Below, in pieces: positions 1 through 58,500 of a DNA stretch of 64,000 nt. The DNA lies in NCBI GenBank assembly GCA_036172245.1, contig JAYWIR010000016.1, positions 2,604,001-2,668,000 on the forward strand, given 5' to 3'. The stretch is from Raillietiella orientalis (lineage: Eukaryota). Made by a program: the position numbers and the translations under genes. The first letter of the stretch is position 1, and each line of letters begins with the position of its first letter. Below the pieces are notes generated by a model that ran no database searches, was not told the origin of the DNA, and saw nothing but the letters and a program-made list of their open reading frames with translations.

Positions 1-220
1 AGTATTCGCTTTTTAGGTTTGCGAGTTCTTTTGCTTCTTTGATGCCCTGCCGTGATCAGTTCACAAGGTCGTTTGGAGGGTTTATCGTAGGCTACTGACT
101 CAGCTTTTCTATATCATCCAAGAGGATGATGGAGAGTTCCATGTGGGGTGAACTCTGAACCCGCTGCATCGATTCCTTCTCAGTATTCGAACCCGCGGCG
201 CTTGGCCGTGCCACGAGCGG

Positions 221-280
221 AGACCACCGTAGCCACACGGCCTCAGACGCGGGCAGGAGGCCGTGTGGCTACGGTGGTCT
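221..280. repeat. Perfect 24-bp inverted repeat (hairpin, 12-nt loop)
   Basis: 221-244 agaccaccgtagccacacggcctc is the exact reverse complement of 257-280 gaggccgtgtggctacggtggtct. Confidence 0.95.
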
Positions 281-2344
281 GTCAGAGCGAGGCACGAGCG
301 TTCCATTGCATGCGGTGCATTTGCGGTTGCTGCTTTGGTGATGCTGTTTTTGTACAGTGAACTTCACACCCATTCCTCAGAAGTGTACGTTGCGTGCACC
401 CATTGCAATCTGAATGCGCATACGCGGGAACATTTATGACTCCCTGAGCAGTTTCTTTCATCTACTAACGACACCTGTGGATACCAACATGCCATTTAGA
501 ATTTCACACAGGGAGTGGGTGCTTCCACCCCTCCACCCCCCAAGTGACTTCTCGGATCGGAAGGAGAGAAAGAATAACCAAAGTTTTGAATGCAATAACC
601 GTTTCGTCTTCCGATCAATGCGAGAACTTTAATCTCGATCGACTACCCTGCGACTTTTTCATTTGGATTGCTTCCTTATCCAGGAGATACACAGTCGGCT
701 ACGATTCTTGCAGCTGATCGGACAGCTTCCAAACTTCGACACGTCCACCCTATCAGTGTGACGTGGAATATGTCATCATATATTGCACGGACCCTGGATG
801 AATAAAAGTGCCGTTGCTGATGTTTAGGAGGCGCCAAACTCAATTTCTTAAATGCGATGTCGGGAGTGTGCTCGTGGACTCGAGATGACAGGTAATGTAC
901 TCTTCCGTGAATATACAAAAGCTTACACTTACTCTATAGGTTGTTGCGTAATTTAGCGGAAGCTAAAATTCGTGCATATTCCCAGATCTTGAAGAAACCG
1001 AGCCGAACGATTTTGGATACCTTGTTTCGGAGAGAAACGCGAGCAGGACGGCAGTCTTCAGTGCCAGCAGGTCAACAGGTTAACTTCCGCCAAAGCAAGG
1101 AGGCGGCGATGCTGGGATGCTGCTTTTTACGTTAATTCGTCAGCGCGACAGATGTGGTGCTTTGTTCGTAGATGCAATCCACGGCCTCCTTATCGAAGAG
1201 TCAGTTTAGGAAGACAAACGGCACAAACAACTGGCTTGAGATTCGAGGCGCAGCATTCCATGCGACGGGTCTTTACGTTTCTCTTGCCCCGGGAAGGAGA
1301 TGCTCACGTGCTGGATCGATCTCCCTCAGCTGCTGCACCACCAAGGGCACTTTTCTCGTGTTTCCGGCACTCGCCGCTTTTGCGAATCCAGCCGCTCCGT
1401 TTTCCAGGTCTCGTCTTCTCGTGCAGCGTCCTGACCGCACATCACGATTTGGTTCGCCCCTGGCGCTCCATCCCTCACGCCGCCTCTTTTGCAACGGCAA
1501 GGTGCGAGTACGGCGTGAGTATGCGGGGCATTCGACCTCGCGGAAGATAAAGGTAAGAAGAAAAAGGTCCTCGACAGCGTGTTGTGCCCGTGATGCAGTT
1601 TGCACACAAAGCTTGCGGTCTGCACGCTTCTGCTGGACTTGTAAAGTTTTCAGCTAGGAGCGACCTGTGAAGTTTAGGGAGAGGCGGTTTCCTGGATCCG
1701 GAACTCGTGCTTCGATGTGGCTGCACGTCTGTCCACGTGAGTGGCAACGTGGTTTCAGCCCCTTACGTTGGAGCTCTTTCGTTGCAGTGCGTGAGGCCCT
1801 CTGTGCAGATCACACAAGCGTGTACACTTTGCGCTTTACGCCTCCGGGCAGGGTGGCTGTTTGCTGCCGCGCGTTTGGTCAATCAAACTGTGGTTCCACC
1901 CCGTTCCTGGTGGCATCATCCGATATGTGAAAGAAGAACTCATGAATGTTGGATGGAACCCTTCTTTCCTCATCAAAGAGACTTGTTGCGATTTGATGCC
2001 GAGCACGTAGACCCCTTGCAAGCTGTCGCCCATCGAATCAAAGGCGCCATCACTTTTGTACTGGCGCAAACGGTGCAGTCCATCTTTCCTCTTCATGAAG
2101 TCAATGTTCACTGCGCCACGATCTTTCTAAACCAGCGTGCCTCCGTGCAACGGAGCACCGGATTTCTATGCTCTGGTCCGAGACTCCTGAATAGCTCAAA
2201 GTGCCTGCTGTTCCTACGGTCAGTGCCTTCGGCAAGCCATCTCTGTAAGACTGTGACATCGCATTAGATAGGCGGAACACCATTCTTGGTTCCGTTTTTT
2301 CTTCTTCACGTTTCGTTAATCTCCATGGGTCAAGTTGATGATTC

Positions 2345-2591
2345 TTGTCTGGCTGAAGCCTTTTGCCCGAATCCTTTTCCCAACTTATGATGGTATCCGA
2401 ATTCCAAGTCAGCTGTTTCAGGTCCTCGTAAAATTAGCCGAGAGATTCTTTGCTCACATGGCACAAGGCAACCAGACCACCACATCCGTGGTGGTCTGGT
2501 GCCTCCGTTTCAAGGAAGGAAACCACACGCTTCAACCTTCCACAGTCCGATTGCTGCAACTCCATGCGCAGCATATAATCCATCGAGCCAT
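2345..2591 (-). mobile_element. Degenerate THAP-like zinc-finger domain, probably a DNA transposon remnant
   Basis: Minus translation MARWIICCAWSCSNRTVEG*SVWFP...VVVWL...LSANF, plus KRLQPD in a shifted frame, resembles the THAP pattern C-x2-4-C...FP...W...C..HF...RL.P; contains stops and frameshifts. Confidence 0.35.
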
Positions 2592-2849
2592 AGTTGCAAT
2601 GCACTGCCGATGGCCAAGGAAGAACATCTGAGTTAATTCCAGAGCTGCGTCCCCTAACGGTAACAGTCGGTCACCAGCCATTCCGTGGGTGCAGTCCGGC
2701 TGGTCGCTCCAGTTGCTCACGTAATGGGTTTCTATAGCCAGAGTGAGTCTTGTGTTGGTCCAGTTTCTTCGTAGGGCGCTCGCTAGCTTCCTACTTTTCT
2801 TCTATTCGTCTGGGATTCCAGTTCCTTCGTCAGTCGTTCTCCCAACCTT

Positions 2850-3690
2850 TCCATATTGTGCACACGTGGGGATTCTTCAGAGAGCGGTCCTTTGCGAACG
2901 GCGCTGTTCGGCTCTGCACTTTGTCTTGGGTGAAATCGATCACAACCAGGTGAGAAGTTGTTCCAATAAGATGAGAAGCCATCCGTCCGCTTGCCATCAC
3001 GAACCCAAGCTGCAGCTGTGGGTGCTCTTTTTTTTCTCGTATGTGTTGGTCTCTTTGAAGAAACGTAGGGAAAGATCAGTCATCAGTCATCTGTCAATCG
3101 CTTTCAGTAGGAATAGGCAATCCAAGAGGGGTTATAATAAGATGGTCGCATATCAATTTTGCAATGTCCTTGTTTCTTATGCCTTCTTGAAAATCGAAGC
3201 GCATCAGAAATGTTGTCGTACCCCATCTATCGGAAGGGTTCTGACCGCTAAATACTTATTTTTTGCTTTCGTATTTAGAATTCCATGGCCGTCATCAGCC
3301 CCCAGCCGTGGTCAGCAGCTTGACCAATGGGTAAAATGTCTTGTCAGTTTCAAAGTGGCGTAGTTAGGAAGGTAGAGGAGGGAGCTCAAAACAATCTTTC
3401 AAGAAGGGAGCTTCGCTACGGATGTGGCGTTCCGTATCTCGCCCGTCTTGCCGCAGACTTTGAACGTAATCCGGAGGATGCAAATACACCAAACGGGAAC
3501 TGTCAGCAGACTCGGTCCTTCCTCGACACTGTCCCGAAATGCTTGAGAGCAGGAATTCCAATCAGTGATTTGCTTTCAAAAGCGCCCCCGAAATCATTGC
3601 TTTTCCCTGTCGATAGAAAAGAAATCCCTGCTTGGCCATCCGGAAGTTTGCGAGATATTCGCCGGCGTCCAATTCTTAACAACGGTTTCG
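2850..3690 (-). mobile_element. Highly degenerate PIF/Harbinger-type DDE transposase remnant
   Basis: Motif remnants in the expected order across frameshifts: ELDAGEYLANFRMAKQGF (FRM at 3645-3637), ALKHFGT...FGV, LGADDGHGI (GAIDGTHI-like, 3305-3288), *LMTD, RVHNM (CVLHN-like, about 2860). Confidence 0.45.
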
Positions 3691-3839
3691 GAATTTCTTC
3701 CTGAGGAGCATTCCGAAGAAGATGAGGCGTTGCTTCGGAGAGGAAGGACTTCCGCTGTTTTCCGTGCGAGCCCTTTCGATGGGGCAGGAGCCTGCGAAAG
3801 CATGTCGGCAACTCAGTGGGGCTCAAGGCTCGCATTTTC

Positions 3840-4402
3840 TCTCGTAGGTGCTCAACCAGAGTCAGTCGCCCCGAGGCCACTCAACGTAAACAGGTTCACG
3901 AGGAATTTCGCAAAGTGTGCTTCTGTTCGGCGCTGAAGTGAGGGTTAGAGAGTTGCACTTTGCTCCCAGATTCTTTCGAAAGCGGTTGTCGTGCATGGTC
4001 CGAGGTTGCCCAAGAAATCCTCTCATTCAGTGAGTTGCCGGGGCATGTTTGAGAAACAGTACCTTTTTCTCGTAGTTGCTGGGAGCATCGTCGTGATCAA
4101 GTGAACCTCATCCCCGTGGAACAGGATCTTGTTTGGAACAGTAGTCGACGTTGGAAGTGGGGCTACCTTTGGCGTGCTCCAACTGTGCTCTGTGGAATGG
4201 AGGTCTTCTGATTTGTGGAAGAGTTCGAGGTTCTTGCAGTTGCAGGTAGGCTTGCAGACGAGGCGTTCCTGCGGCTCCGCTTCCTTGAGCGACGATGGCT
4301 TAGGTCCATTTCCGACGGCATCATTTTTTTAATGGATTGGAGTTCGTCGTCCGTCCAGTTATCGACTGTGAGACACCAGGACGTGTCCCTAGCGTAAGGC
4401 AC
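3840..4402 (-). pseudogene. rep: Endogenous circovirus-like (CRESS-DNA virus) replication-associated protein (Rep), decayed
   Basis: RCR motif I SWCLTVDNWTDDE (W at 4378); frameshift; WT*AIVAQGSGAAGTPRLQAYLQL (motif II, 4263-4249); RAQLEHAKGSPTSNVDYCSKQD (motif III YCSK 4143-4132); PVYVEW then GATDSG..STYER Walker A remnant (about 3872-3843). Order and spacing fit Circoviridae-type Rep. Confidence 0.85.
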
Positions 4403-4404
4403 TA

Positions 4405-5020
4405 TTGTAAGACTGGTGGGTATGTGTAGGCGAAGAAAGAGGGCCAGCTGGTAAACAGTATCACCCGGATGGGCCTAGCTCTTGGCCTGGAGAAAGTCTG
4501 ATAAGGGTAAAAGTGTTTACGCGCGGTTCGTGTGAAGGGAAGGAGCTGCGTTGGGGGGCTGTAAAAGAAAAAGAAAGACCGGTTTTGGCGTTTTAAGAAA
4601 CGCGGGTTGGGTAGGAAAACGAGTTCGAAGTTAAGGAGGAAGAAATACGGTATTCGGCGTAAGTACTCTGGAAAGTACTTGAGGAGGTTTGATCGGAAGC
4701 GAGTTTTTGAGAAAAGGTGTGTGTCCAGGAATGTGGTTGTTCAGGCTCGTAACTTCGGTGCAGCAAGTCGTTCGGGAGGTAGTGGTTATGATGAAGCGTG
4801 GTTGTGGATAGAGCAGTATGAGTATAAGGATCTTAAGGACGTTTTGGTGGATTGTCAGTTGGTATGATTTGCGCAACTATCTTGAGGAAGTTACTTTGGC
4901 TGGAATTATGTATCGATAGAGCTGATGGCTGTAGGAATTTCTGTTGCTGCGATTGCTGATGATTTGGGAGGGAAAATGTCACGTAAGAATGCTTTGCTTC
5001 TCAGGGTTTATTAAGAGGAA
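4405..5020 (-). mobile_element. Degraded 3' fragment of a LINE-like retrotransposon (post-RT region and 3' UTR)
   Basis: A/C-rich minus strand; LTIHQNVL then RSLYSYCS across a frameshift resembles the LINE ORF2 motif L.IYKS.IRS.L.Y.S; several stops. Confidence 0.35.
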
Positions 5021-7089
5021 CGGAACCTAAACGTGAAGATCTAGCACTTAGAAAAAATACAACGCCAAGAGCCGATTCGAAAGTCAAGAGCAACAGGCAG
5101 CCGCATGGTGGTGTGACTCCGCGGTGTGCGCGCTTCGAAGGCCCTACGAGACCCTGACATCCATCCGGTGAGCGTTTACTGGGACTACCTGGGAACCGCG
5201 GTCGAGGAGCCTGTCTTCTCTTGACCACAACTCGGCATTTGCAGCAGATATCGGCATACCCTCCTTCTGCAACAGCACTCGCAACATTTCGCGTTTCCTT
5301 CTCCGCTCCATGGCTTCTTTTCTATGTGATCACAGACGGAAATTTCGCATGGAGTCCCGTGGGCGCCGTTCCCAGGCTTAGAGGGCGACGAGCGTGGCGG
5401 GCAATCGTTGCTGATGATCATCTGACTCCTGAAGTGGACGACTCAGCGGGGGGAGTGCTTTCTTCTAGTTGTTCCTCGCAGCCATTCCGATTTTCCTTCC
5501 TTTCCGCAGAGGTCTCATCAAGCAGATTTCTTGGAATCTGCCGGCATGGTTTTTTATGACTTTACTTCCTCTTTCAGAAAGTCGCGTTCGGTGCCTTTCC
5601 TCACCGTACGACGGTGGAAAGATCTGCAAGAGTGCCGACTTGGCAGAACTCTGGTTTCCTCTTGCCGTGACCTCTTCCTCGAGGCTTCATCGTCGCGCGT
5701 TGTTACGGTCTTTCCCCGTCCGATTCGAAAAGACCCACTTCGAGAGTTTGCAACATTCCGCCCGCTGTCGAGAGTCTCTACTCTTCTTGTCAACCAAGCT
5801 CTGCTTGCTCTCGTTTCGATTTCGGAGAAGCCTCGAGGAAGGCTGCTTGCTCAGCTTCTGACAAAGGAACCACGCCGAAGCTCCGCAATTCGATCCCAGG
5901 CAGTCGATTCTCCTCTCTTCCGCAGTGCTCGTTTGCTTTTTTGCGCGCAGCGCAAATCCATCCTGCGTGGGTGTCATCGTGCTCCACCGAGAAACCCTCT
6001 CTCGGGCACCTGCGTTGCTTTCGTTCCTTGTTTTCGTCCCGGGTTTCAGCTTCGGTGATGTTGAACCATGGTTCCCTCGCACGTTCGAGTTGGTGTACAG
6101 TACGCAGTACACCTTTTGGTGAGACGATCGCTTCCGCTTTCTTACTGACGAAAGCAGCACGAGATAAATACGGATGGAAGTTCATGGGCTTGAGAAAGTG
6201 GCGCAGCAGCTCTCTTCCCCCTCCTGGACGCCCGAGAAGCACCGGTCGCGCGAGCCTTCCGTTCCCATCGTCCCTCCGATTTGCCGGAGCACCACGGTCT
6301 GCAAGAGGACTCCACTGGTTGTGGCTCGAAGCAGTTCGTTTCTTTCGATTGCACTACGCGCTGGCAATCGGAGTGAGCATCCGAGCCGGAGCAGAAGGGC
6401 CGGGAAGAGATCGACAGGCACCCGTCGTCATGTGTTGTTCGACATGGATGGAACAGGTACTACGATAACACACATCCGTCGAGGCACGCGGAAAGAAGTT
6501 AGCAGACATCATGAAATGAGATGCGAGTCACTGGTGAGCTGTCTTCAATGAGGGTTTCTGTTGTACCTCACATTGCAGAGACGTCTACTCAGATTTACCG
6601 TGGCGAACTGATTAAAGTGGAAATTCACTTCGGTGTCGTGGAGAAAGTAAGTATGAAGCAAAAGTTGGCTTAGCAAGAACTGCCACCGAGGGGAACAGGG
6701 TAGGCAGGGCTGTCGTCTGCGTGAAACCATCGCAACTGAAATGTGGATGAACAGGGATAGCCGAATGGTTGGGCGGAACCTTCGAAGCAAAGTTCAGATT
6801 CTCAGAGGGTTTCCTTTTTCGAACCTTAGTCTTTGGGCGTGTAGCTCCAAGCGCCAGCTTCTCAAATTGGGTGCACAGAAATGACGGGACAGAGGTCAAC
6901 ATGAGTGTCAAGCAATCCAGTTTCCTTTCCGGCTATGCAGTTCTGCGCCAAGACCTTTACAAAATCGGTACATGGGAAGCTGATCCGATTTCGCCTTGAA
7001 ACTATTACAAGGAACCGTATAAACGATGAGAAGGTTCGTAATATCGAACTGCTTTCTTATTTATCTTTCTTGTATTGCCTTATCGCAGG

Positions 7090-8640
7090 CACGCAAATAC
7101 TTGGGAAAACCCTTCGGCATGAAGGTCTTCCACATGCAACCGACTATGGAAGACATCTGCCAGAACGCGAGTGCCATACTTGAGAGTGTACTCTCAGGAT
7201 GGCATAAGATGGACGCATTGAAAACCTTCTACTCCAGCCTAGTTCATTACGAGAGGCTGGGAACTCACCGAAAAGTGGAATGGCAGTATGTCGACGAGCA
7301 AGGAAGAAGTTAAAGAAGGTCCTTCACCTACCATCCTGGGTAGCAAACGAGTATCTGTACGGAGAGAGAACGAAAGGCTGCCTAGGACTAATGAAGCTAG
7401 CTCAAGAGTCCGATACCTTCATCGTGGATAGCTGTTTCAAACTGCTTACGTCGGCAGACAAAGCAGTACCTAAACTTGCAAAAATAACCCTGGATGAAAT
7501 CGTCCAAATACGGAACCAAGAAGCCCCGACAGATGATAATCTCGGGGAATTCATGACGGGCAAGAAGATCACAAAGCCCAGATGGGATATTGAGAGCCTC
7601 TGGTCGAAAGGAAGGAAGGCCTCTAGGAGAATTCAAGTCCGTTGGGAGTTCAACAAGGAGAACCCCGTATAACGGTTGACGGCGTAATCTTCGCCAGCAG
7701 TACAAGAAGAGGGCTTCCCTCCGGCGTGAGAGCATTGCACATATCCTCTCCATTGCACATTGCACAACACGCGTGGCAATCCCTCATTGAAAACCACGTT
7801 AGTCAAGGGAAGGCCATGCAGCGTGTGGGCATGCATCACTCTTCAAGCTTCTTCCATACAAACGGAATCCACCTAAGATACCAAGACTACAGGTTCATCT
7901 ATGCGGCAAGACTGAACCTTCTGCCACTAAACGCTGGACCAACGAAGAAGGTTCATGAAGGGATTTGTCGGCGTTGCGGAACCGAAGATGAGACTTTATC
8001 ACACATGCTCAACAGATGTAAAAAGCACGCGCCTCTGACGATGCAGCGCCACGATGCTATCCTGGAAATTATGAAGAAGGCCGCAATGGAGGAAGCCAAG
8101 TGGACTCTGGTATCAAGCAATCGCAGAGTGCCAGGAACCACCTTCACCCTAATACCCGAAAAAAGAGATCGAATCGGTGTGCTGGACATCGCCTGCCCTT
8201 TTGAAAACGGAAAGGAGGCGTTCACCACATCTAGGTAAATAAAGGAGGCCAGATACCAGGATGTCGCCATGCCAACTCGGAAACGCTGGGAAGATAACCA
8301 AAGTACAGGCGATCCTTGTCGGCCCACTTGGAGCATGGGATCCTCAAAACGACAACGTTCTACAATACCTAGGAATTCCGGAGAAGCAGCTGATAAGGCT
8401 ACGGCAGCGGATGGCAGCCACCTGCATCCGCTTCTCAAGCAGCATCTATGCAACGCATGTTAGAAGGAAAAATGCAGCCCAACCGGAAGACCTGGACAAT
8501 GCTCCCACCCCGGAAGAGAGAGCACCGAGGAACCGTGGAGAACATGGAGGAAACATCATTCGCGAAAGATTTTCCAGAGCCATTCCGGCAACAGTTTTTG
8601 TATTAATCCAAAATGCTAAATTTATCTGTTACAATTAAGC
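7090..8640 (+). mobile_element. 5'-truncated, decayed RLE-type non-LTR retrotransposon, Utopia (NeSL group)-like
   Basis: KYLGKPFG, LSGWHKMDALKTF, EYLYGERTKGCLGL, VDSCFKLLTS, WSKGRKASRR, QGKAM, YRFIYAARLNLLPLN, CCHC CRRCGTEDETLSHMLNRC (7966-8019), RHDAI, VLDIACPFENG, KEARY, ILVGPLGAWDPQND, IYATH; frameshifts near 7310, 7665 and 8290, stop at 8236. Confidence 0.85.
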
Positions 8641-8811
8641 ACTTTGGTTTTATGCAGTTTTTCTGTTCATCTTTGGTTTGGTCGAGGGTAACTCAATGAT
8701 GCATGTAACTTGCTAATTTGTGCCTACGTTCACAACGGTTAATTTTATTTAGATAATTAACACGAGTGATGTTACTTCAAGAAACTTCATCGAGCGAGTA
8801 ATTACAAAATC

Positions 8812-8817
8812 TTTATT
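8812..8817 (-). terminator. Probable RPA1 polyadenylation signal AATAAA
   Basis: tttatt on the plus strand, about 150 nt downstream of the RPA1 stop codon. Confidence 0.55.
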
Positions 8818-8965
8818 CTTCCCATTTTTGGCCAAATCCTCATTACAACGTTCGAAAATTTCTTGTCCTTTCAAAGGATGCTGAATACACTGTGCATACA
8901 CTTGTTTTATGGGAGACTGGTTTCCTTTTCAGTACTTTACATGATAAACATCAAACGATGCACTT

Positions 8966-11638
8966 TTAAATACAAGTCGATAATTTGTTTATATTTTCAA
9001 TCAAGAACTGCCCATACTCAACTGGATTCAGTACTCCACAATCCACAACACTTGTTTTTAACCTGACCTCATCCTAATGGAACACGTAAGTTAAGCACCA
9101 GTAACAACTCTGCTTACATTGAAATTCTCCATTTTGACTCTCAGTTTGAAAATAAAGGATTTGAAATATGCTTCTTGAAAAATTGCATTAAAAGCATCCT
9201 CATTAGCATCTTTCAGTTGACCAAGTCTAGCTGCAGTTGTGTTGAGTATGGTCTCTGCACTTTGTTGAAAGCAAGTAACCCACAGGGTATCTGTGAAGTC
9301 GGATATGTTCATCTGCAGAGCAGCTTGCATAAGCCAAATTGACAGTACACTTACATTGAATAACAAACGATACTTGAAATCTGGAAAGTCTTTGTTGCAC
9401 TTCTCACAACGGTACCTTCCATTGGCCATATCCACTACTTTTTTGTTGCAATCATCTGTAGGGCATGCCATATACAAGGCATTCTCCCTACGCATCACCA
9501 CTACTGTAGCTTTGCAGGAGTAATAGTCTGCTTTGTCTTTCTGACCCAGCTGCTGCAATCGAGCTTCTTCCAATGTCAAAAAATTACTTCCAGATGCTGT
9601 TTTGTCTTTAAATAATACAGCCTTATTTTGCAGAACGAACCTGACAGTCCATCTCTTTGGTTGGATAGGCTCACCATTCCTAGGGAGCAGCCTTCTGCAT
9701 CATACCAACCTCTCAACATGTGTGCTTTGGGTATATCAGGATTGATCTGTTCACCAAGCATTTCTTAGTACTCCAGCCTATATACCCCTGACCTGTAAAG
9801 TGCTGGAACCCAAACACGAGAGTGACCGTCCTCCAAAATCCGAGACTTTGACTCCTTTCACTGCCACAACTGGGTGGCCAGATGGATCAAACTGCTGTGC
9901 TTGTGCACTCCAGAGAGTTAAAGTCACTTGGTGACATGTGTCATCCACTAATACGATGTCTCTTTTCAGCAGTTCACGGTTGGTTGTGCGCTGTAACAAC
10001 TTCTGAGGCTCTGAAGCAGATTTACACACACCAATGACATCTGTGGAATGAACCACTGTATCTATTGGACTTTTTATTAATACACCAACCTACTACACTA
10101 TCCTTATCTATCTTTGACAAATGATTGATGGTTACAAAATTCAACTGCAACAAGGGAATCGAACTACAGTCTGTATGGCATGGAATCACTTGTGTGTCAC
10201 TTAATAATGACATTTCATAATCATTATTGAGACTACTGTACTGTTTGTTGGCTGATTTCAGAGTTGCTTTGTGAATGTAATACACTTTGTTAACCTGTCA
10301 AGTGTTTATTGCAGTTTCATCTTCCAATAATACTTACTTCAAAACGATCAAACAATTTATCACAAACATCATTGAATGCTGTAGCCCTGATCTCCCCTGA
10401 TTCATCAACTAGATCCATATTGAATAATTTTCCTTCCCCTCTCGAATTTGACCATGTGCGAATGCTACTTTTACTTGTCACACGTGCTCTTATTGTCCAC
10501 CTGAGCACTGAAAATGTAAAAAGTGACACAATGAATTTTTTTTTACTTATTCTGATATGGAGTTAAACTGGAAATAGGGAATATCATAGTTGGTGGCGAC
10601 ACACCAGGATCCGAAACAAATGGCTGTGATATGTTACTTGGTTTTGCAACTGGGATGTTTTGGGCCAAGTTCTTTGCTGGTGCTGGAGCTACTATAAACT
10701 TTGAGCACTGAACACAGAATTGAAAAAACAATAACCTGAAAGATTGGCTCCCGAGTCCACATAGGATTGGGGATTACCGATTTTGCCTCCAATATCAAGG
10801 CCTTTGATCAATACTGTCAATTCAAGAATAATAATCACCCTCCTAAATGATGAAATACAATTTTTGCTGTATAGAATAGACACTTTCAATCATTTAAGAA
10901 CAAAAATATTAGTTCTTAAATTGGTGAATAAAGCTAATATTGCATACTTGACTTGCATAGCTTAATCATACATCTAGGTCACTACAATAATTCACAGATT
11001 GCATTTAAGAAAATCATGATGGAAAATCGAGAGAGAACACCTGATTCCTTTGAGAATAGAGGATTTCTAAAAGATCTACTCTTAAGAATAGAATAGTACT
11101 TTTCTGTACTGACTCCACTTGCACTTGTTCCAGTGTTTATGAGATTACAAATATATTTGTCCAATCGAACAACTGCATTGTTATCTATTTCTCCAGATGT
11201 AATTTTGGAATTTAGTTGAGTAGCCAGCATGGCAAAAGCATGATAATGTTTTCCATCTGATATCATTAAACGATATCGTTCCATCGAACCTCCAGGAATC
11301 TTTTTATATCCCTAGAAGATACACATTAGGTGATAAGATTAATGGAGAATCTGGTTTGCGACCAGCATTTTGACGATATTGGTTAAACAGCTTGATATCT
11401 ATGGCAAATACTTACCAATATTTGAAGAACTGGTTTTTCATAAGTTCCCCCTTTCATTACAACCTATAAAAAGAAAACGGCATCAACATTACTATGTCCG
11501 TTTATTGTCAAACATCAAACACAATTTACTCAAACGATATAATAATCAATTGATTTAAATGTGAAGAAATAAGAAATCAATATAAATCAATGAATTCCTT
11601 CTTACATCTATTGCTCCTTCTGACAAATTCGATGCCAT
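8966..11638 (-). CDS. RPA1: Replication protein A 70 kDa subunit, 12 exons, 603 aa
   Basis: Exons 11638-11606, 11463-11416, 11311-11100, 10842-10736, 10691-10547, 10500-10338, 10294-10090, 10040-9793, 9746-9641, 9596-9355, 9312-9118, 9073-8966; all GT-AG with consistent phases, 1812 nt in total. Motifs [60 protein letters not shown] and the zinc ribbon [13 protein letters not shown]...RCEKC. Confidence 0.97.
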
Positions 11639-11689
11639 TTTCAAGGTTAGCAATGAATGAAGCAGTTCCAGCTATACCATGAACAAGAA

Positions 11690-11909
11690 CCCGCTAAAAT
11701 CCAGTAATGCTTACCATGATAGTTCTCGAAATGAGAAGATGTTTTTTTTTTTTAAAAAAAAAAACTACTACTTTTCACCTATAGCTATGATACTTTCCAA
11801 CAAAAGACATATTTGTGCATTTTAATATAGAAATAAAATTTAAATATTAACATTAAATGTTTTGGCAATCTTAGATTAAAAACCTGCAGAAGATGCACGA
11901 TTATCGATT
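11690..11909 (-). promoter_or_regulatory. Putative RPA1 promoter: E2F-like site, T12A11 tract, DRE-like site
   Basis: TTTTAGCGGG (minus strand, 11699-11690), T12A11 at 11742-11764 and TATCGATT (7/8 match to DRE TATCGATA) at 11902-11909, all upstream of the ATG. Confidence 0.3.
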
Positions 11910-13830
11910 ATTAAAGAAAAGATAAACCTCAGATCGTGTCTTCAGATATTATAGCTATCATAATTGCGGGAGTTATAACATCAACATTTCAGGACTAATT
12001 CCTGTAACTGTATTGTATTTTCTAGCAGTCGTAGTTTAGTCGTAAAGTTCAAGGGTTCACGTCTTTGTGCCACCATACCATCACCTCTTTCTTTCTCGGT
12101 ATATTCAACAAAGTTATACAATACTTGCATTCTTCCTGTACTCAAAATATTCCCGTTGGACAAATTCTAATGAACTTAGTGTAGACGTATAATATAGGTG
12201 TTATGTAGGTTATTAAAGAGCATAGAATTTACAGGAGATGGTAGCATACTAGAGAGCGATACTCACTCATTGAAAGTAAATCATTATTCTCTTTTTTGGA
12301 AATTAAAATTAACAGTTATTCGCAGAACTGTGAAATCCCCTAATGTAGCGCGTGACTGTAGTATCACCATGCATCTAAGCTGAAATGTGATCTTATGAAT
12401 GATAGTCCATCAAGGAAGGCAAGAATCAAGAAAATTTGTACCACTATTGACACTGCTATTTTAGACAAATCTGTTGGTCAGAGAAAGTAGTATACTCATC
12501 CAGAAGAGTACCTTCCATCCCTCTTCCTCTCTTAGTAGGAGATGGAAGTTCGAAGTTTGGACGCTCCGCGAGGGGCTCAGATCCCTTCTTTGCTAACTCT
12601 GCTCTATTCCCCGCGAGCCTCTGGCTTTTAAAAGCAATTTTGGAAACAGGAGTCGTCTGGTCACATGCTTCCTTGGAGAGGGTCACTTGAGAATCATCGC
12701 ATCTCTGAATAACTGTTTGATGGCCCAGATTCGCGGAATTCTTTGAGACGGGAGGGGTTCTTTCTCAGCCTCTCTTTGATGACGTTGCTGGTCCAAAAAC
12801 GTCTGAGGTGATGACGTTTGATGATGTCTGAGGTGTCAAGTCCTGAGCTTCGTTTGGAAGAGGAGCAACCTACTCTTTTCGTTGCGCTCAGAGTATCCAT
12901 CCTGCAGAGCATCCTAGTCGTCTTGCTTAGTAACTATCGGCCCTCGGACGCGCACATGAATCCAAAGACCAGCCCATGTCAGAAATGCTTCTGTGGCGCT
13001 TCTCAAAGGAAGCAAGCTCTCCCAAGACTACTGGTAGAGGAAGAGGCACACCCTGGAAATACTGCTGATTGGACAGAGAGCGTCAGTCCTCAAATCTCCG
13101 GTCAGCGCAGATATGTGATGACTGAAAGACAAAGAGCCTAGAAGAAGAGAGGATTCCTGAAAAGGAGACTGCTGAAAGGACGGAAAAGAAAAAGAGGAAA
13201 GAGAAATGGGATAAACAGGTCGGACTTGCTTCTCAATGTGATTGATAAGAGGGAATGGGAAGAGAATCGGGAACACTCGCGGGAAGGGTAGCTTTCCACA
13301 TGAGTTCGTGAGACGAGAATGAGATGGGAAAAGACGGAAGCGAGGAGGCTGACGGGAAGCAAAAGAAGGGAAGGAGAGATTTCGAGATACCTGAGCACCG
13401 TTCCAACCTGCCCTTCCACGGTAGGCGTCGGCAGAAAACTCCCATCCATCCAGGAACGCTGTGGGAGGAGCGGAGCAGGACGAAGGTAGGTCAGCGCGGG
13501 ACTGTTCCGAACCCTGAAAGTCGGGTGAAAGTTCCAGCAGCGCATGCTTGTGGGTGCCTGGGTGAACTCCCTAGGAGGATTGCAACAAAACCGGTGATCT
13601 CAAGGAATAGGAGGTAAGGTGAGGTTGGCATGGTTTCCGGCTGGTACTGGGTGGTTGTCTCTCCAGCTGGCTCAGAGCAGCCTCCTCCTCCGGCTTTATT
13701 GGAAGAGCACCACAGCCATCGGAAGGAGCACAGACGGAAGGAGAGCGACCGCAGCAGCTGACGAGGGAGACTGATAGTCCGTGCACGCTCCTTCCAGTTC
13801 CTTTGGTGCTGAGAAGCTGTGCTGACTGAC

Positions 13831-36265: not shown

Positions 36266-39200
36266 TCAAGGGCAGATAAGAGGGTGGGAACCAACTGCTT
36301 GCGAGTTCCCTCCAGGCGAAGATCCCTCGCCCGTCGGAAAGGAGGAGGGCGGTTTCACCGGGAAACCGTGGAAACGGGGGAGGAGGTGAAGACGTGATGA
36401 GGTGCGGGAAGAAGATGCCGCAAGCGGCAACAAACTCCGCACTTCCTTCCCCAGTTTCGCTCTCCATTCCTTCCCCCCTTCCATCCGTCCGCTTTCTAGC
36501 CGCTCACCCTGCACTCTGCTCCTCCCCTGCGCGACCCAGGAGTACCTTTTCGACACCAGGAGCCTCATCCAGGGATTGGACGACAGCAGCGACGAGCTTT
36601 CCTTGTCGTGGAGGGGGTTCCGTTCGTTTCTGCGGAACTTGGCCCGCCTGTTCTGGAACCAAACCTGGAAGGGTCAGCCGGAAGTGTTCAACAGGAAATT
36701 TCCGGGCCTTCGGCTTTCAGAGGCGCAGGAAGGGGAAGGGGAAGGGGAGGGATGGAAATGTGAAGGCAGCGAGGAAAAGGGCCTCGGGTCGAAAAGGACG
36801 ACGCGTTGCGCCCGGCAGAGCGGTGCGCGACCCCGGTCTCGCCGTTTTAGTCCCTCGGGGATGCGGGAAGGGAGCCACGTCGGCCAAGCGTGCGCCACAC
36901 TTTGATCTTAGCCAAAAGGCCGAGACCAAAAGACGCGTCTGTCCCATTTTCCTTCTCTAGCTTACTCCTATGCCGATCTCCCCTTCGCATTACCACCCAC
37001 CCTGTATCCCGTGAGAGTGCTTTCAAAGAAGGAACGCAAAGCTTGAGGCGTTGGCTGAGGCACCGCTGTGCGTGTCTCCCCAGAAACGGAAGTTCTTCCC
37101 ATTCACCTTTCGTGCAGCAGTGCCCCAAAAGGGCCCAAGTGGGGTACGGAGGAGGTGGGTGGGGGTTACGCGCGCTTGCAATTCTGTAGCAGTGGCGGAC
37201 ACAAATAGCCTCCTGCTTTTTATCGCTTCTCTTACGAGGAGTAGCGCCTGCGTCCTGTCGGTTGCGCGCGAGGAGAACCAGGAGGATGCTGGTCAGAAGG
37301 AAGACCCTGAGGGGTTCCTTCTGGGCCAGCTCGGAGTGCCCACACGGTTGCCATCAAGCTGCTGGATGGCGTTCGCGGGCAGTGGCGCACCCTGACGACG
37401 CGCCTCATTCTCCCTTGACCTCACGGGATGGGAAGGGAAGCATCAGACCCCACTTCGAGCATTGGTTGCGAAGTGCAAGGGAGGGGAACCGTGCGCAATG
37501 CGTCATGTCGCAGCCACAGTGACATACGCGAGCATGGCCAAGCGACCCCGCTCCCCGCAAGAGGGTCCTGGTTGGCAGGGTTGAGGGCGTTCCTCGGGAG
37601 AGAGCAGCCCCTACCACGCGCGGAAGTCCCTCGAGCGCGCGGGACGCGGTTTTAGGGTTGAAAGACATAGCTGCTCCCCCTTCCCTGTGTCCTCGAGTGC
37701 GGTTCGAGGGAATAGGGAGGCTCCCCCCCGAACGAGTGGCCCCTCCCGCAGTCATCCCAGAGACCTGGATCCTGGACTCGCTCAGGTTCACGGAAGCTGC
37801 GAGCTCTTCTCTGACGAACGCGTCCGGGTAGTGCGTCTTGTCGAAGGTCATCTCCAGAGCAGCGACCTGTTGGTTGGTGAACGCCGTCCGGCTGCGCCGC
37901 TGCTTGCGCCTCCGCTCGACAGCGGGACAGCCGCTGGCGCTGGTTCCGTCCCCTGGAAAGCAGGCAGTCTTGGAGGAGGGAAGAAAGGCGGGAGGGATGG
38001 CGGCCGATAGTCTCCTGGAGTGCTGTGGCAGCGGCTCCTCGGTCCAGCGAGCGCAGACCGCAGCTCCTCCTCCAGCTGGCGCGGGAGCCACCTGTGGACC
38101 GTGAACTAGTGAGACGAGCGTGAGCAGGCGAAAGCAGAGGGATGAGGAGAGGCGAAGCACGAGGTGACAGGGAACCGCTCCGAGAGAACCATTTCCATGG
38201 AGACGCGAAGACGGACGCCGTGCACGCGCAGACAACGACGAGGTTCCGGGGATGGCCATGGATGGGAGAAGGTGGAGAAAGGGGTTGGGTGGAATCTTGT
38301 TTGATCTCGTTCCTGGCAGAAAGGAGGAATTCTGAATCCAGGGAAGAATAGCGCGAGAACGACGGCAGTGGAAGCTCGGGCTGGCGGATAACCGGGAAGG
38401 ATGGGCAAACGTCCGTCGCAAGGGCCCGCAGCCAGGTGGTGAGGAGCAACTCACTTGAGGGGGATGGGGGGGAAGAGGAGAAGGAGGAGGAAGCGGAGAG
38501 GTGGGGGTCGTCAAACGACGCATCGGGTCAGGAGAAACGAAGGTCTTTCGTTGTATCTGAAACCCGGTCTCTTGTCACGACCGCTCGCGGAAGGGAAACC
38601 GGGAGGGGGCGGCAGTCGCGTCGCACTCGGAGACGTCGACAGGGCCTTCCTGGACAGAGTAGGTCGGGAAGAGGAGGGTCGCTCCTGGTTCGGTGGAAGG
38701 TTTGCCTCTTCCTCCCCGTGCTCTCCCTATGGGACCCGCATCCTCAAGCAGGGAGAAAAGGGGGGACTACGATGGGGAAACTCACGAGAGGGAACCACAG
38801 CGCATGTCAAGGAGGGCGATGCGAAGCGGCACCCGTTCTTCCCCGGGGTCCGCGGAATCAGGGACTCCCTCGTCCGTTCATCTCGAAGAGGATGTCGGGA
38901 AGGGAACGAAAAGGGGTAGACGGAACCATCGCTTGCTTGCGTGGATGTTTTGGAGGGGGAGAAGGAAAAGAAACGGATCAAGAAAGGAGTAGGAGTAGAA
39001 GGGAGAATTTCCTAGCAAACTGCCCACGGCTCAAAGGGCCTGCCCTGGGGATCTCCAAGGGCAAGGAGAGATGGAAGGTTAACCAGTCCTTGGTGACTCG
39101 CACCAGGCGTCTCCTCGCTTTTCCTAGGGACTCCCAAAGGCTGCGGAAAGCGGTTGCCAGGCAACGACGCGGATCGCGAAGCCACCGGCAGTGGCGAGAT

Positions 39201-55528: not shown

Positions 55529-58500
55529 AACTGATAGGGAGATGTGGGGAAGCTGGGACGCGGGGCCGGGATGACGGCCTCTGCCGCCGGGGCTCTGCAG
55601 GAGGAAAAGGGGGAGCCGCACCGCTCGGAAGCAGGGGCCTATGCGGGGTGGGAAGGGAATGGAGGAATGGGAGAAGGAGGAGTCGGGAGGTCGAAGGGAA
55701 AAGTCAAAGGTCTGCAGGATGGACGGGAAAGTGAAGAAGAAGAAGCCTGCCGGAGGAAAATTCTTTCGGGTATCAGAGACGAGAGACCGTCGGCCTTAGG
55801 AAGGGGCCTCTCCTCCCTCACCCTACCACCCATTCTTTCCCTTTCACACCCGAGGGAGGCGAGAGAGAGTGCGACGGGATCGCCGTGGACGAAGCGCCTC
55901 CAGCGAGGCAATGGTCCCGAGGAATCGAGTGCGCTTCTCCTCGACAGCTCCAGAGAGAAGCAGGGACCCAGGAAGGATGACGTGTCGATCTGAGTAAGGA
56001 AGAGAAAGGAAGGAAAAGAGGGAGAAGAGCGCAGGCTAGGCACTGGGAAGCCTCTGGCTCTGCGGATACCCATGGGAGGCACCGCCGCCACTGTCCCGCG
56101 ACGGGAGCGCGCCGGCTTCCTGGTCGGGAGAACCGACCGTCGCACGAGCATTCGGAGAGATGCGGCCGGCCCTCGAAAGGGCATCCTTCTTCGTGGGACT
56201 CCAAGAAGTCGGCCACATAATCGGTTCATCTGGAGCTGCACGCAGAGTCCCCGTTCCCTATACCACGCATGTCCTTTCCGTTCCCCTGGAGAGGAGCCGT
56301 CTGGAGAGGCGATCCGCTCCCGTTCCCCTCCTGCCTCGCAGTGGAGGCTCCTCGGAGTCTCGAGCCAAGAGCTTCTCTTGTCTACCCCTTGCTTCCCTCC
56401 AGCAAGTACGAGGCACCTAGCAAAGCTGGCAGCAACCTGCACCACCTCGCCGAAATTTCCAAGAGGAAATGTTTTTGGCGCCGACTTCCAGGATGGATGA
56501 GGAATAACAGGGAGCGAGGGAGGGTATCATCACTTCCGCCCTGGGGGCAGGTCCTCGTGGAGACGGCTGGTGGAAGAAGTGGTGGGGTAGGAACGGGGGT
56601 AAGGAGGGGAGCACCACATCTCGCTTGGTGACGCCTCTAGCTCCCGGCAAAGCCAGGTGGCAAAGCCAGGCGCGGTTTCTTGCATCCCACCTGGTGAGGG
56701 ACCCCAAAGCGCCCGTTGCCCTCCCTCCCCCCTCTCCGTGAACCTCAGATCTCCACGAGAACGGGATCACCCTCGACATTCCATTCCGAGAGCTCCGGGG
56801 CAGGATAGGGGAGGAGGACCCACGGCATTACCATCAGCAGACCTCCGCCGCGAAACTGCTGATGCTGTGGGATGCGCTGGACGGACCCTTCCTCCGTAGA
56901 GACGGCAGCTGCAGAGGACTTGCCTTCCTCTGGAAGGAGCCGAGTAATGGTGGTGCCGGCTGTCTTCCCGAAAGCGGCTCCCAGGACGTAGGAGGGAGGG
57001 TGGGCGAATGGCAACCCTGGACCCCAAGCGTCCGCAGGAGAGGGGTCGGAAGGCGCACGCGCGGTGTGTTTTCCTCGTTCGCATCCCTCACGCCTGGACT
57101 CCTGGTAAGGTGGGGAGGAGAGGGGAGGGGAGAGGCGCGGAGACGACCCCCCCCTGTGGTTTCGGCAAGGAGCGTGCGGGCCTCAGAGATCGTCTTGAAT
57201 TCCACTTCCCGGGAGTCCCGGAGAAAGCTCGCTCTCCCGCAGCTCGCGGCAGCTCCGAGTTTCTGGAAGAGCGGAAGGGAATGACCCTTCCATGGGACAC
57301 CCAGCGCGACAGGGAGGCCTAAAAACCCTGGGAAGTGCTGTTACAGGATGAACTGATCCTCCCGCGTGAACTGAAAAAGGATCACTTCCTCGAATGGGGG
57401 AGGAGGAGGGAACAAACACTCCTCCCTCAGGAGAGAGACTTCTCTCTAGTCAGCTGACCAATGTGACCGTTGCTGCTCCGCGGGACCACGCGGTTCACCT
57501 GAGAGGAAATGGCGGCTCCGGGAGACGCTTCGCAAAGCGCCCTCTCCAGGACTGGATTCCCGGAGGAATACTTTAGCCACTGACGACAGGTGGCTCCGAT
57601 CAGTGGGGTAGTCCACTGCGAGGGGCGCAAATTTGACTGGGCATGGGGGACGACCCGGGCGCGGCGGATGCAGCTTCACGCGGAAAGCCAGGACGAGGGG
57701 GCAGACGTGGCCGCTTCCCCGGATGCAAGAGGGAGGAGGGAAGGGACTTAGTTTCCCCTGTTGAGTGGTGGCACAGTCGACCTGGTGTGTCTCCCCTCGG
57801 GAACGGACCAAGGAGGTGGTCGGAGACGCTTCCAGAAGAACTCGGGTTCGATCGAGGAAAATCGCCACCCTTCCCCCTGGCACGATGGCTCCTGCCCACT
57901 TCCAAGGCTGGAGGTGGATTCCTCGCGTCCAGGCGGCCCTGCGGATCCTCTGCCATCGCCCCCTTCTCTCCCTGGCTTTTGCAGTCTTGGGGATTCCCGG
58001 TGGACATCAATCCTCATTAATGGATCGACGGCCGGAGCGGGATCGCAGGGGCATCCCAGAAAATAAGGTAGGGAAGGCGAGGAGGGGGAGGGTTATTAAT
58101 GGCTCCTCTTCCTCCGGGATAGCTCAGCGCCAAAAGATGCTGATCTGCCCAGCTCTCGCGTCCAGGTCTCTCCCTCCATTCCTCTCCCGAAGTGAATGAC
58201 AGATTTATCGAAACTCGTTGGGTCCCCACTTCCCGTTTCAGGAATCCCGCTTAATCATCCCGTGCCGGGAGGAGGGTGATCACAGGAGGAACGTGGAGCG
58301 CGGATTGCAGGATTAGCGCGGGAGGAGGGAGTGGCTGGGAGGACTGTTCCACAATCCTCCCCACCCGCACTCTCAGCGCGGGACTCTCCTGGTGGGATCC
58401 GAGTGAACCCTCAGGGCCTCCACGAAGTCCTGAGGTCCCCTTCTGATCTCCCTCATCTTCCCTCCAGCTTATGGCCTTGGGATCCTCGGGAAAACAAGGA

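What the first reader, a model, noticed from the sequence alone, without database searches (positions are those of the whole stretch)
3840..4402. Fossil circovirus-like (CRESS-DNA) Rep endogenised in an invertebrate genome, missed by the ORF track
Seen: across one frameshift and in-frame stops, RCR motifs I (WCLTVDN), II (GTPRLQAY; catalytic His appears replaced by Arg) and III (HAKGSPTSNVDYCSK) occur in order, followed by a decayed SF3 helicase Walker A. Established: this is the Circoviridae-type Rep layout, and such endogenous copies link orphan CRESS viruses to their hosts. Inference: it records a past germline infection by a possibly undescribed virus lineage. The LINE-like fragment ends right at the Rep start (GTG CCT, perhaps once ATG CCT), which may explain the missing origin stem-loop. 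No Walker B or capsid was found.
Basis: partly seen in the sequence, partly recalled or inferred. Interest (0 to 1): 0.75.

Follow-up and report, generated by a model that had tools for sequence, protein, structure and literature searches.

The report
Decayed CRESS-virus Rep fragment in chromosome
A broken, inactive piece of the replication gene of a small circular single-stranded DNA virus lies in a eukaryotic chromosome near the RPA1 gene, which is a real but ordinary kind of viral fossil.

Summary
The Rep-like sequence is real. It lies on the minus strand at 4069-4402, not across all of 3840-4402. The motif II-III piece passes Pfam Viral_Rep (E 7.8e-6). It has 74 relatives with E <= 0.001 among 1.84 billion proteins. 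23 of those 74 also align their N-termini, with motif I, collinearly in a second frame.

Only the nuclease domain survives, matching profile positions 4-109 of 295. A profile search found no helicase or Walker A remnant. The gene is dead: no start codon, one frameshift, one in-frame stop, and two of the three metal-binding residues replaced.

No LINE domain flanks it.

Where a CRESS virus would have them, upstream of Rep, I found two further features. One is a decayed stem-loop whose loop holds CAGTATCAC, one base from a nonamer common in relatives. The other is the most basic open frame in the window, on the opposite strand, which looks like a capsid N-terminus. Both are positional inferences. 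A covariance model built from relatives does not detect the hairpin, and the basic frame has no homologues.

Verdict: a new member of a known kind (endogenous CRESS element), of modest interest. Earlier notes from this scan report other CRESS fossils elsewhere in this genome.

The parts
4316..4402 (-). Rep N-terminus with RCR motif I (WCLTVDN at 4358-4378). There is no ATG in frame: the codon aligned with residue 1 of two relatives (4400-4402) is not a Met codon.
   Evidence: Own profile positions 4-28 align to 4390-4316, i-E 4.4e-5. 23 of 74 relatives give a second, collinear tblastn segment here with their N-terminal residues. The frame is shown.
4069..4332 (-). Rep nuclease domain with motif II (GTPRLQAY) and motif III (DYCSK), in a frame different from that of motif I. 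The frameshift lies between about 4300 and 4316. There is an in-frame stop at 4108-4110.
   Evidence: Pfam PF02407 at E 7.8e-6. PDB 7kii_A at E 1.2e-5. 74 relatives. Profile positions 23-109 of 295, 71.3 bits. 74 of 74 relatives match here by tblastn.
3840..4068 (-). It holds no recognisable Rep linker or helicase sequence, so its origin is unknown.
   Evidence: No profile, Pfam or tblastn match.
4440..4476 (+). Candidate decayed origin hairpin. It has an imperfect stem (8 Watson-Crick pairs of 11) and a 13-nt loop, TAAACAGTATCAC. The nonamer-like CAGTATCAC sits at 4456-4464, on the strand opposite to Rep.
   Evidence: DNA fold -13.3 kcal/mol, z -2.96, 1 of 200 shuffles as good. AGTATYAC occurs twice in 64 kb. 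It is the only site in the window that meets 'nonamer with at most 1 mismatch plus at least 8/11 stem'. CAGTATTAC is the nonamer at 27 of 76 stem-loop sites in the relatives. Against: the covariance models R1 and R2 do not detect it.
4565..4867 (+). Candidate remnant of a capsid gene 5' part. It is a 100-codon open frame with an extremely Arg/Lys-rich first half and no start codon, pointing away from Rep.
   Evidence: 4568-4717 is the most basic of 47,477 stop-free 50-aa windows in all six frames, at 52% R+K. 50 of 57 relatives' second ORFs lie on the strand opposite to Rep, and 35 of 57 reach at least 30% R+K near the N-terminus. No homology was found.
4391..5040 (+). Compositionally distinct block with G far above C on the + strand. 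It starts at the Rep start and covers the hairpin and the basic frame. It may mark the right-hand extent of the viral insert.
   Evidence: It has the highest GC skew (0.46) of all 650-nt windows in the 64 kb; 4400-5050 is 12.7% C and 33.2% G.

Best explanation
This is an endogenous viral element, a dead fragment of a CRESS-DNA virus (phylum Cressdnaviricota, circovirus-like Rep of Pfam family Viral_Rep) fixed in a eukaryotic chromosome about 4.2 kb beyond the last detected RPA1 exon.

Shown: the fragment holds the N-terminal HUH nuclease domain of Rep (about 110 codons, minus strand, 4069-4402) and no detectable helicase. The gene cannot work. It has no start codon, one frameshift and one in-frame stop. 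Two of the three metal-binding positions are lost; the Gln and the catalytic Tyr remain.

Inferred, about 60% likely: the fragment is a contiguous piece of roughly 1 kb of double-stranded viral DNA. It would span the divergent 5' ends of the genome in the order Rep nuclease half, then intergenic region with a decayed origin hairpin, then the basic N-terminal part of the capsid gene on the other strand. That is the cyclovirus-like 'type II' arrangement, with the nonamer on the capsid strand. A piece spanning two divergent genes and the origin cannot be a copy of one mRNA. Entry would therefore have been by DNA-level joining of a replicative-form fragment, not by LINE retrocopying.

It has no present function that can be read from the sequence.
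For: Rep identity:
- Pfam Viral_Rep at E 7.8e-6, above the curated cut-off.
- Circovirus Rep nuclease domains are the only PDB matches.
- 74 relatives at E <= 0.001 in 1.84e9 proteins, 35-53% identical, mostly 270-350 aa. The 10 relatives looked up sit on contigs of 0.9-5 kb.
- A profile of 20 of these relatives retrieves proteins carrying PF02407 plus PF00910. The few that are named are circovirus, crucivirus, Circoviridae sp. and Cressdnaviricota sp..
- The collinear motif I segment in a second frame is matched by 23 of 74 relatives and by the profile.
- 9 of the 13 nuclease-domain columns invariant in 20 relatives are kept.

Decay: the frames show it. The metal-binding Glu and His are replaced; the triad Glu44/His52/Gln54 of duck circovirus Rep is taken from passages of PMC9973303 and the alignment.

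Integration: the fragment is embedded in a 64-kb contig with an RPA1 C-terminal domain (E 9e-40) and a homeodomain. It is the only Rep locus in the window.

Origin and capsid inference:
- The hairpin folds with z -2.96.
- 68 of 78 related viral contigs carry a stem-loop nonamer. TAGTATTAC accounts for 42 sites and CAGTATTAC for 27.
- In 21 of 25 opposite-strand cases and 40 of 51 same-strand cases the nonamer lies within about 190 nt upstream of Rep. Here it lies 54-65 nt upstream.
- One site in the window meets the criterion, against 1.03 expected per shuffled window. The chance of it falling in the 166-nt interval is therefore about 0.003.
- The basic frame ranks first of 47,477 windows, and a basic N-terminus is typical of the relatives' second ORFs.
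- The GC-skew block begins exactly at the Rep start.
Against: For the core claim there is nothing substantial against. The Pfam score is only 0.5 bits above the cut-off, and the motif I piece alone fails Pfam.

For the extension:
- Covariance models built from 64 relatives' origin hairpins do not find the candidate. It is not among the 25 (R2) or 21 (R1) matches with E <= 10 over the whole window, and it scores 0.8 bits, E 9.3, even in a 401-nt search.
- The hairpin criterion was framed after I had seen the site. Window-wide, the count (1) equals the shuffle expectation (1.03).
- The basic frame has no homologue in Pfam, in 78 related viral contigs, in the ESM Atlas or in a word-based search of longer proteins.
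- The whole block 4400-5040 is purine- and G-rich, so Arg/Lys/Gly-rich translations appear in all three forward frames. Its 52% R+K exceeds every relative, whose maximum is 46%.
- No target-site duplication or defined insert ends were found.
- No paralogue, empty site or read data could be examined.
Confidence: 0.85

Rival explanations
1. Only the 334-bp Rep nuclease piece (4069-4402) is viral. The G-rich block 4400-5040, its hairpin and its basic frame would then be unrelated host or repeat sequence that abuts it by chance.
For: The covariance models do not detect the hairpin. The basic frame has no homologue. All three forward frames are basic because the DNA is purine-rich. The window-wide hairpin count equals the shuffle expectation.
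Against: Three independent oddities coincide at the place and in the order and orientation that a CRESS genome predicts. They are the nonamer-like loop, the most basic frame of 47,477, and the most skewed 650-nt block in the window.
Confidence: 0.35
2. The fragment is a LINE-mediated retrocopy of a viral Rep mRNA, with a LINE fragment abutting the Rep start.
For: Earlier scan notes report LINE-associated viral fragments elsewhere in this genome (unchecked). There is a short A-rich stretch at about 5040-5100.
Against: None of 93 frames in 1-9000 matched a reverse transcriptase, endonuclease or any other Pfam family. There is no poly(A) at the Rep 3' side, and the 3' half of the gene, which an mRNA copy primed from the tail should keep, is the part that is missing. 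No target-site duplication was found. If the origin and capsid reading is right, the piece spans two divergent transcription units.
Confidence: 0.05
3. The sequence comes from contaminating exogenous virus DNA or a chimeric assembly, not an integration.
For: No reads could be examined, since no run was listed. No genome is held for this window.
Against: The sequence is a truncated, frameshifted, stop-containing gene with the metal site lost. It lies in the interior of a 64-kb contig with host genes on one side. A live virus would be intact.
Confidence: 0.03
4. It is a domesticated, expressed host gene derived from Rep.
For: Intact endogenous rep genes predicted to be expressed exist in some animals (passage of PMC6372831).
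Against: There is no start codon, the frame is broken twice within 110 codons, the metal ligands are lost and the helicase is absent.
Confidence: 0.02

Closest known systems
Endogenous circovirus-like / CRESS-DNA elements (CVe) of invertebrate genomes (Dennis et al. 2018, J Virol, PMC6069186; passages read)
   Same: They are Rep-derived, often divergent from all sampled viruses, fragmentary and degraded, and flanked by host sequence. That study counted 93 circovirus-related sequences in 307 invertebrate assemblies, all derived from rep.
   Different: This copy keeps only the nuclease domain. It may also keep the adjoining origin region and the capsid 5' end, which that survey did not detect for new elements. 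The host group was not established here.
Circoviridae Rep nuclease domain (Muscovy duck circovirus 7KII; PCV2 2HW0, 6WDZ, 7LAR)
   Same: Same fold family by sequence. Motifs I, II and III are in the same order and spacing, and the Gln of the metal triad and the catalytic Tyr are kept (PMC9973303 passages).
   Different: The Glu and His of the metal triad are replaced, the ORF is broken and no SF3 helicase is present. Identity to the solved chains is low (E 1e-5 to 1e-2), and most close relatives are unnamed metagenomic Reps, so family membership is open.
Cyclovirus-type ('type II') ambisense CRESS genome organisation (type labels seen in Table 3 of PMC6186406; the definition is recalled from Rosario et al. 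2012, not read)
   Same: If the hairpin and capsid readings hold, Rep and capsid diverge from an intergenic stem-loop and the nonamer sits on the capsid-coding strand.
   Different: The nonamer has one base changed from the canonical NANTATTAC, the stem has three mismatches, and the capsid identity is unproven.
Full-length tandem circovirus genomes integrated in cypriniform fish (passage of PMC6372831)
   Same: DNA-level integration that carries more than rep.
   Different: Those are whole genomes of genus Circovirus in vertebrates. This is at most half a genome of a divergent lineage.

Membership tests
CRESS-DNA virus Rep (Pfam Viral_Rep PF02407, HUH endonuclease) | Significant match to the family profile | tested here: met
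   E 7.8e-6, 26.5 bits against a cut-off of 26 for 4108-4299(-). 74 relatives at E <= 0.001. Own profile scores 71.3 bits.
CRESS-DNA virus Rep (Pfam Viral_Rep PF02407, HUH endonuclease) | RCR motif I (xxTxxN-type) upstream of motif II, collinear | tested here: met
   WCLTVDN at 4358-4378 aligns to profile positions 4-28 and to the N-termini of 23 of 74 relatives. It is in a different frame, so a frameshift is present.
CRESS-DNA virus Rep (Pfam Viral_Rep PF02407, HUH endonuclease) | Motif II metal ligands (Glu, His, Gln in circovirus-type Reps) | tested here: not met
   His is replaced by Arg. Glu is replaced by Gly or Gln, depending on the alignment. Gln is kept (triad from PMC9973303). This fits a dead descendant of the family, not an active member.
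CRESS-DNA virus Rep (Pfam Viral_Rep PF02407, HUH endonuclease) | Motif III catalytic Tyr (YxxK) | tested here: met
   DYCSK is present, with Tyr, Cys and Lys in invariant columns.
CRESS-DNA virus Rep (Pfam Viral_Rep PF02407, HUH endonuclease) | C-terminal SF3 helicase (Walker A, Walker B, motif C; PF00910) | tested here: not met
   No match to profile positions 110-295. A helicase-only profile scores -3.0 bits, reached by 67 of 200 shuffles. Pfam found none.
Endogenous viral element (germline-fixed) | Viral sequence contiguous with host genes on one contig | tested here: met
   RPA1 C-terminal domain at 9091-9699(-) and a homeodomain at 37405-38574(-) lie in the same 64-kb window.
Endogenous viral element (germline-fixed) | Independent confirmation of the junctions (reads, orthologous or empty site, population fixation) | not testable with these tools
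   No genome is held and no sequencing run was listed.
Family Circoviridae (Circovirus/Cyclovirus) | Rep groups inside the family in a phylogeny with named references | not tested
   Only about 110 decayed residues are available and almost all relatives are unnamed. The solved circovirus Reps are distant (E 1e-5 to 1e-2).
Family Circoviridae (Circovirus/Cyclovirus) | Ambisense genome with a stem-loop bearing a NANTATTAC-type nonamer between the 5' ends of rep and cap | tested here: inconclusive
   The pattern and fold evidence is positive. The covariance-model test is negative. The capsid is inferred from position and charge only.

The most novel reading that the evidence does not exclude
The locus would preserve the origin-spanning half of the genome of an unsampled type II CRESS virus: Rep nuclease domain, nick-site hairpin and capsid N-terminus. 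It would have been captured as DNA. The extreme G-over-C excess (with a milder T-over-A excess over most of the block) on the nonamer-bearing (virion-sense) strand would record cytosine loss on the single-stranded virion DNA before integration. That would make it a fossil of the virus's mutational bias as well as of its genes.
Probability: 0.12. Interest if true: 0.5.

Novelty: new member of a known kind. Interest (0 to 1): 0.3.

Why it matters
Endogenous CRESS elements are one of the few ways to tie the huge number of orphan, metagenome-only CRESS viruses to real hosts, and to date those associations. This copy adds one more host-linked Rep from a lineage with no close sampled relative. If the hairpin and capsid readings hold, it also gives genome architecture (nonamer, gene orientation) for that lineage, which Rep-only fossils do not. 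On its own it is a short, dead fragment of a well-known class. Earlier notes of this scan report other CRESS fossils in the same genome, so its main value lies in a genome-wide comparison of those copies.

Tried and rejected
- Whole-genome search of the window's own assembly: no genome is held.
- Word-based search for longer relatives of the Rep piece: none found.
- IMG/VR scan with the single Rep piece: 25 pattern matches, none confirmed.
- Helicase or Walker A remnant: rejected.
- LINE or RT neighbour: rejected for lack of any Pfam domain in 93 frames. A non-coding LINE tail cannot be excluded without the genome's repeat library.
- Capsid homology: Pfam found none. tblastn of all three forward frames of 4480-5700 against 78 related viral contigs gave one hit at E 0.62. 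The ESM Atlas gave no usable hit. A search of longer proteins found none among 77 candidates.
- Target-site duplication: only one 11-nt repeat (4953 and 5408), which does not flank the insert.
- Repeats of the flanks within the window: only two short palindromes elsewhere. No tandem repeats in 1-10000.
- Covariance models of relatives' origin hairpins: they did not detect the candidate. The best window hit, 58080-58116 at E 0.13, is a G-rich hairpin without the nonamer.
- Sequencing runs: none was listed and no RNA holder was listed.
- Earlier-findings look-ups by place (near), by sequence (twice), by relatives and by words returned nothing.
- Family-level phylogeny was not attempted: there are too few residues and too few named references.
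- Host taxon was not determined.

Full report
WHAT IS THERE

Read on that strand, one frame gives VPYARDTSWCLTVDNWTDDELQSIKKMMP (4402 down to 4316, motif I at 4358-4378). A second frame gives AIVAQGSGAAGTPRLQAYLQLQEPRTLPQIRRPPFHRAQLEHAKGSPTSNVDYCSKQD, followed by a stop at 4108-4110.

The second piece alone matches Pfam Viral_Rep (PF02407) at E 7.8e-6, 26.5 bits against a curated cut-off of 26. None of the other five frames I submitted matched a relevant family. Against the PDB it matches only circovirus Rep nuclease domains. Six distinct sequences score E <= 10, and the best is 7kii_A at 1.2e-5. Passages of PMC9973303 identify 7KII as Muscovy duck circovirus Rep.

An exhaustive HMMER scan of 1,835,955,588 representative proteins gave 74 hits at E <= 0.001. 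The best was 1.8e-7 at 46.9 bits; none reached 1e-10. The ten best I looked up are unnamed singletons or pairs on contigs of 0.9-5 kb.

A profile of 20 of these hits retrieves proteins that nearly all carry PF02407 plus PF00910. The few named ones are a python circovirus, a crucivirus, 'Circoviridae sp.' and 'Cressdnaviricota sp.'.

EXTENT AND STATE OF THE REP PIECE

By tblastn, 74 of 74 relatives match 4057-4347 on the minus strand (35-53% identity). 23 of 74 give a second, collinear segment at 4283-4402 in another frame with their N-terminal residues.

A profile I built from the 47 relatives of 250-400 aa aligns positions 23-109 of 295 to 4332-4069 (71.3 bits) and positions 4-28 to 4390-4316 (i-E 4.4e-5). 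Nothing else in 2500-5500 on either strand matches, with all filters off and E <= 100. The first figure is partly circular, because the relatives were chosen by similarity to that piece. The motif I match and the Pfam match are not circular.

A profile of the helicase half alone scores at best -3.0 bits anywhere in 3000-4110, and 67 of 200 shuffles do as well. The 'decayed Walker A' is therefore not supported, and 3840-4068 holds nothing I can recognise. The whole window holds only this one Rep locus.

The gene is dead:
- It has no in-frame ATG. The codon aligned with residue 1 of two relatives is not a Met codon.
- It has one frameshift between about 4300 and 4316.
- It has one in-frame stop at 4108-4110.
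- It has lost 4 of the 13 nuclease-domain columns that are invariant in 20 relatives.

The lost columns include the His of motif II (now Arg) and the metal-binding Glu (now Gly or Gln, depending on the alignment). The Gln and the catalytic Tyr remain. The triad Glu44/His52/Gln54 is taken from PMC9973303 passages and the alignment.

CONTEXT

No genome is held for the window.

The window is eukaryotic. An RPA1 C-terminal domain lies at 9091-9699(-) (E 9e-40) and a homeodomain at 37405-38574(-). The Rep piece lies about 4.2 kb beyond that RPA1 exon, on its 3' side.

Whether the host is an invertebrate was not tested. Earlier notes of this scan call it an animal and list other CRESS and RNA-virus fossils elsewhere in the genome (unchecked). 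None of them resembles this one by sequence.

The claimed LINE neighbour has no support. None of 93 stop-to-stop frames of at least 55 aa in 1-9000 matched any Pfam family above its cut-off. There are no repeats of the flanks in the window and no flanking duplication.

Immediately upstream of the Rep start, on the other strand, three features line up as in an ambisense CRESS genome.

(1) Hairpin. At 4440-4476 the DNA folds into an imperfect hairpin: -13.3 kcal/mol, z -2.96, 1 of 200 shuffles as good. Its 13-nt loop, TAAACAGTATCAC, contains CAGTATCAC.

I fetched 78 related viral contigs with the Rep alignment. Of these, 68 carry a stem-loop nonamer, and the two common forms are TAGTATTAC (42 sites) and CAGTATTAC (27 sites). 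It usually lies within about 190 nt upstream of Rep, on either strand: 21 of 25 opposite-strand sites and 40 of 51 same-strand sites. Here it lies 54-65 nt upstream, on the opposite strand.

AGTATYAC occurs twice in the 64 kb. Under the criterion 'at most 1 mismatch to NAGTATTAC, in a loop closed by at least 8 of 11 Watson-Crick pairs', this is the only site on either strand. Shuffled windows give 1.03 sites on average. The count is therefore not enriched, but the chance of a site landing in the 166-nt interval is about 0.003. That criterion was framed after I had seen the site.

(2) Basic frame. From 4565 a 100-codon open frame runs away from Rep. Its first 50 codons are 52% Arg+Lys, the most basic of 47,477 stop-free 50-aa windows in all six frames. 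In the relatives, 50 of 57 second ORFs lie on the strand opposite to Rep, and 35 of 57 reach at least 30% R+K near the N-terminus.

(3) GC-skew block. The 650-nt window with the highest GC skew in the whole 64 kb (0.46) is 4391-5040, starting exactly at the Rep start.

AGAINST THIS EXTENSION

Two covariance models built from 64 relatives' hairpins do not find the candidate. It is absent from the 25 (R2) and 21 (R1) matches with E <= 10 over the whole window, and it scores 0.8 bits (E 9.3) in a 401-nt search. In that alignment only 71% of cells pair, and the models hold little information, so their power on a decayed copy is low. The result is still negative.

The basic frame has no detectable homologue. 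The block is purine-rich, so all three forward frames look basic. Its charge also exceeds that of every relative.

I rate the origin-plus-capsid reading at about 60%.

MECHANISM

Shown: this is a truncated, inactivated Rep nuclease-domain sequence in a chromosome.

Inferred: it entered as a fragment of double-stranded viral DNA joined into a chromosomal break. The retained part is the 5' half of the gene, and possibly the origin and the divergent capsid 5' end as well. A 3'-primed mRNA retrocopy would not produce that.

No present function can be read from it. A role as a small-RNA source could not be tested (none was listed).

COMPARISON WITH WHAT IS KNOWN

Endogenous circovirus-like and CRESS elements are well documented. 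Dennis et al. 2018 (PMC6069186, passages) found 93 such sequences in 307 invertebrate assemblies. All were rep-derived, many were highly divergent, and the authors discussed the absence of detectable cap. Dennis et al. 2019 (PMC6372831, passages) describe mostly fragmentary, degraded copies in vertebrates, plus full-length tandem genomes in some fish. Rosario et al. 2018 (PMC6186406, passages) describe the NANTATTAC stem-loop criterion and the use of a disordered, basic N-terminus to call capsids when homology fails.

This locus is another member of that class. Membership in the family Circoviridae proper was not tested and cannot be claimed from about 110 decayed residues.

VERDICT

This is a new member of a known kind, of modest interest.

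Noticed in passing
window 9091-9699 (-): Open frame with a strong Replication factor-A C-terminal domain (Pfam Rep_fac-A_C, E 9.2e-40). It is the last recognisable RPA1 exon, about 4.2 kb from the viral fragment.
   Followed up: partly
window 37405-38574 (-): 389-aa open frame containing a homeodomain (PF00046, E 4.1e-13), i.e. a homeobox gene in the same window.
   Followed up: no
window 4391-5040 (+): Strongest GC skew of the whole window (0.46; 33% G, 13% C). T exceeds A over most of the block, and a weaker skew of the same sign runs over the Rep piece (3900-4400). I speculate that this records cytosine loss on the virion-sense strand of a single-stranded DNA virus. This is unexplained.
   Followed up: partly
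window 10001-12000: Sharp drop in G+C to 33.5%, between regions of 43-48%, while most of the window is 55-67%. The window is compositionally very uneven.
   Followed up: no
window 221-280: 60-nt near-palindrome (87% self-complementary) found by self-BLAST. A second, 40-nt one lies at 2466-2504.
   Followed up: no
window 58080-58116 (+): Best window-wide hit of the origin-hairpin covariance models (14.7 bits, E 0.13). It is a G-rich hairpin with a UUAUUA-containing loop, no nonamer and no Rep nearby, so it is probably chance in G-rich DNA.
   Followed up: partly
L001-L078 (IMG/VR contigs): Among 78 Rep-related viral contigs, stem-loop nonamers lie on the Rep strand in 44, on the opposite strand in 23, on both in 1 and were not found in 10. 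CAGTATTAC is nearly as common as TAGTATTAC in this set.
   Followed up: partly
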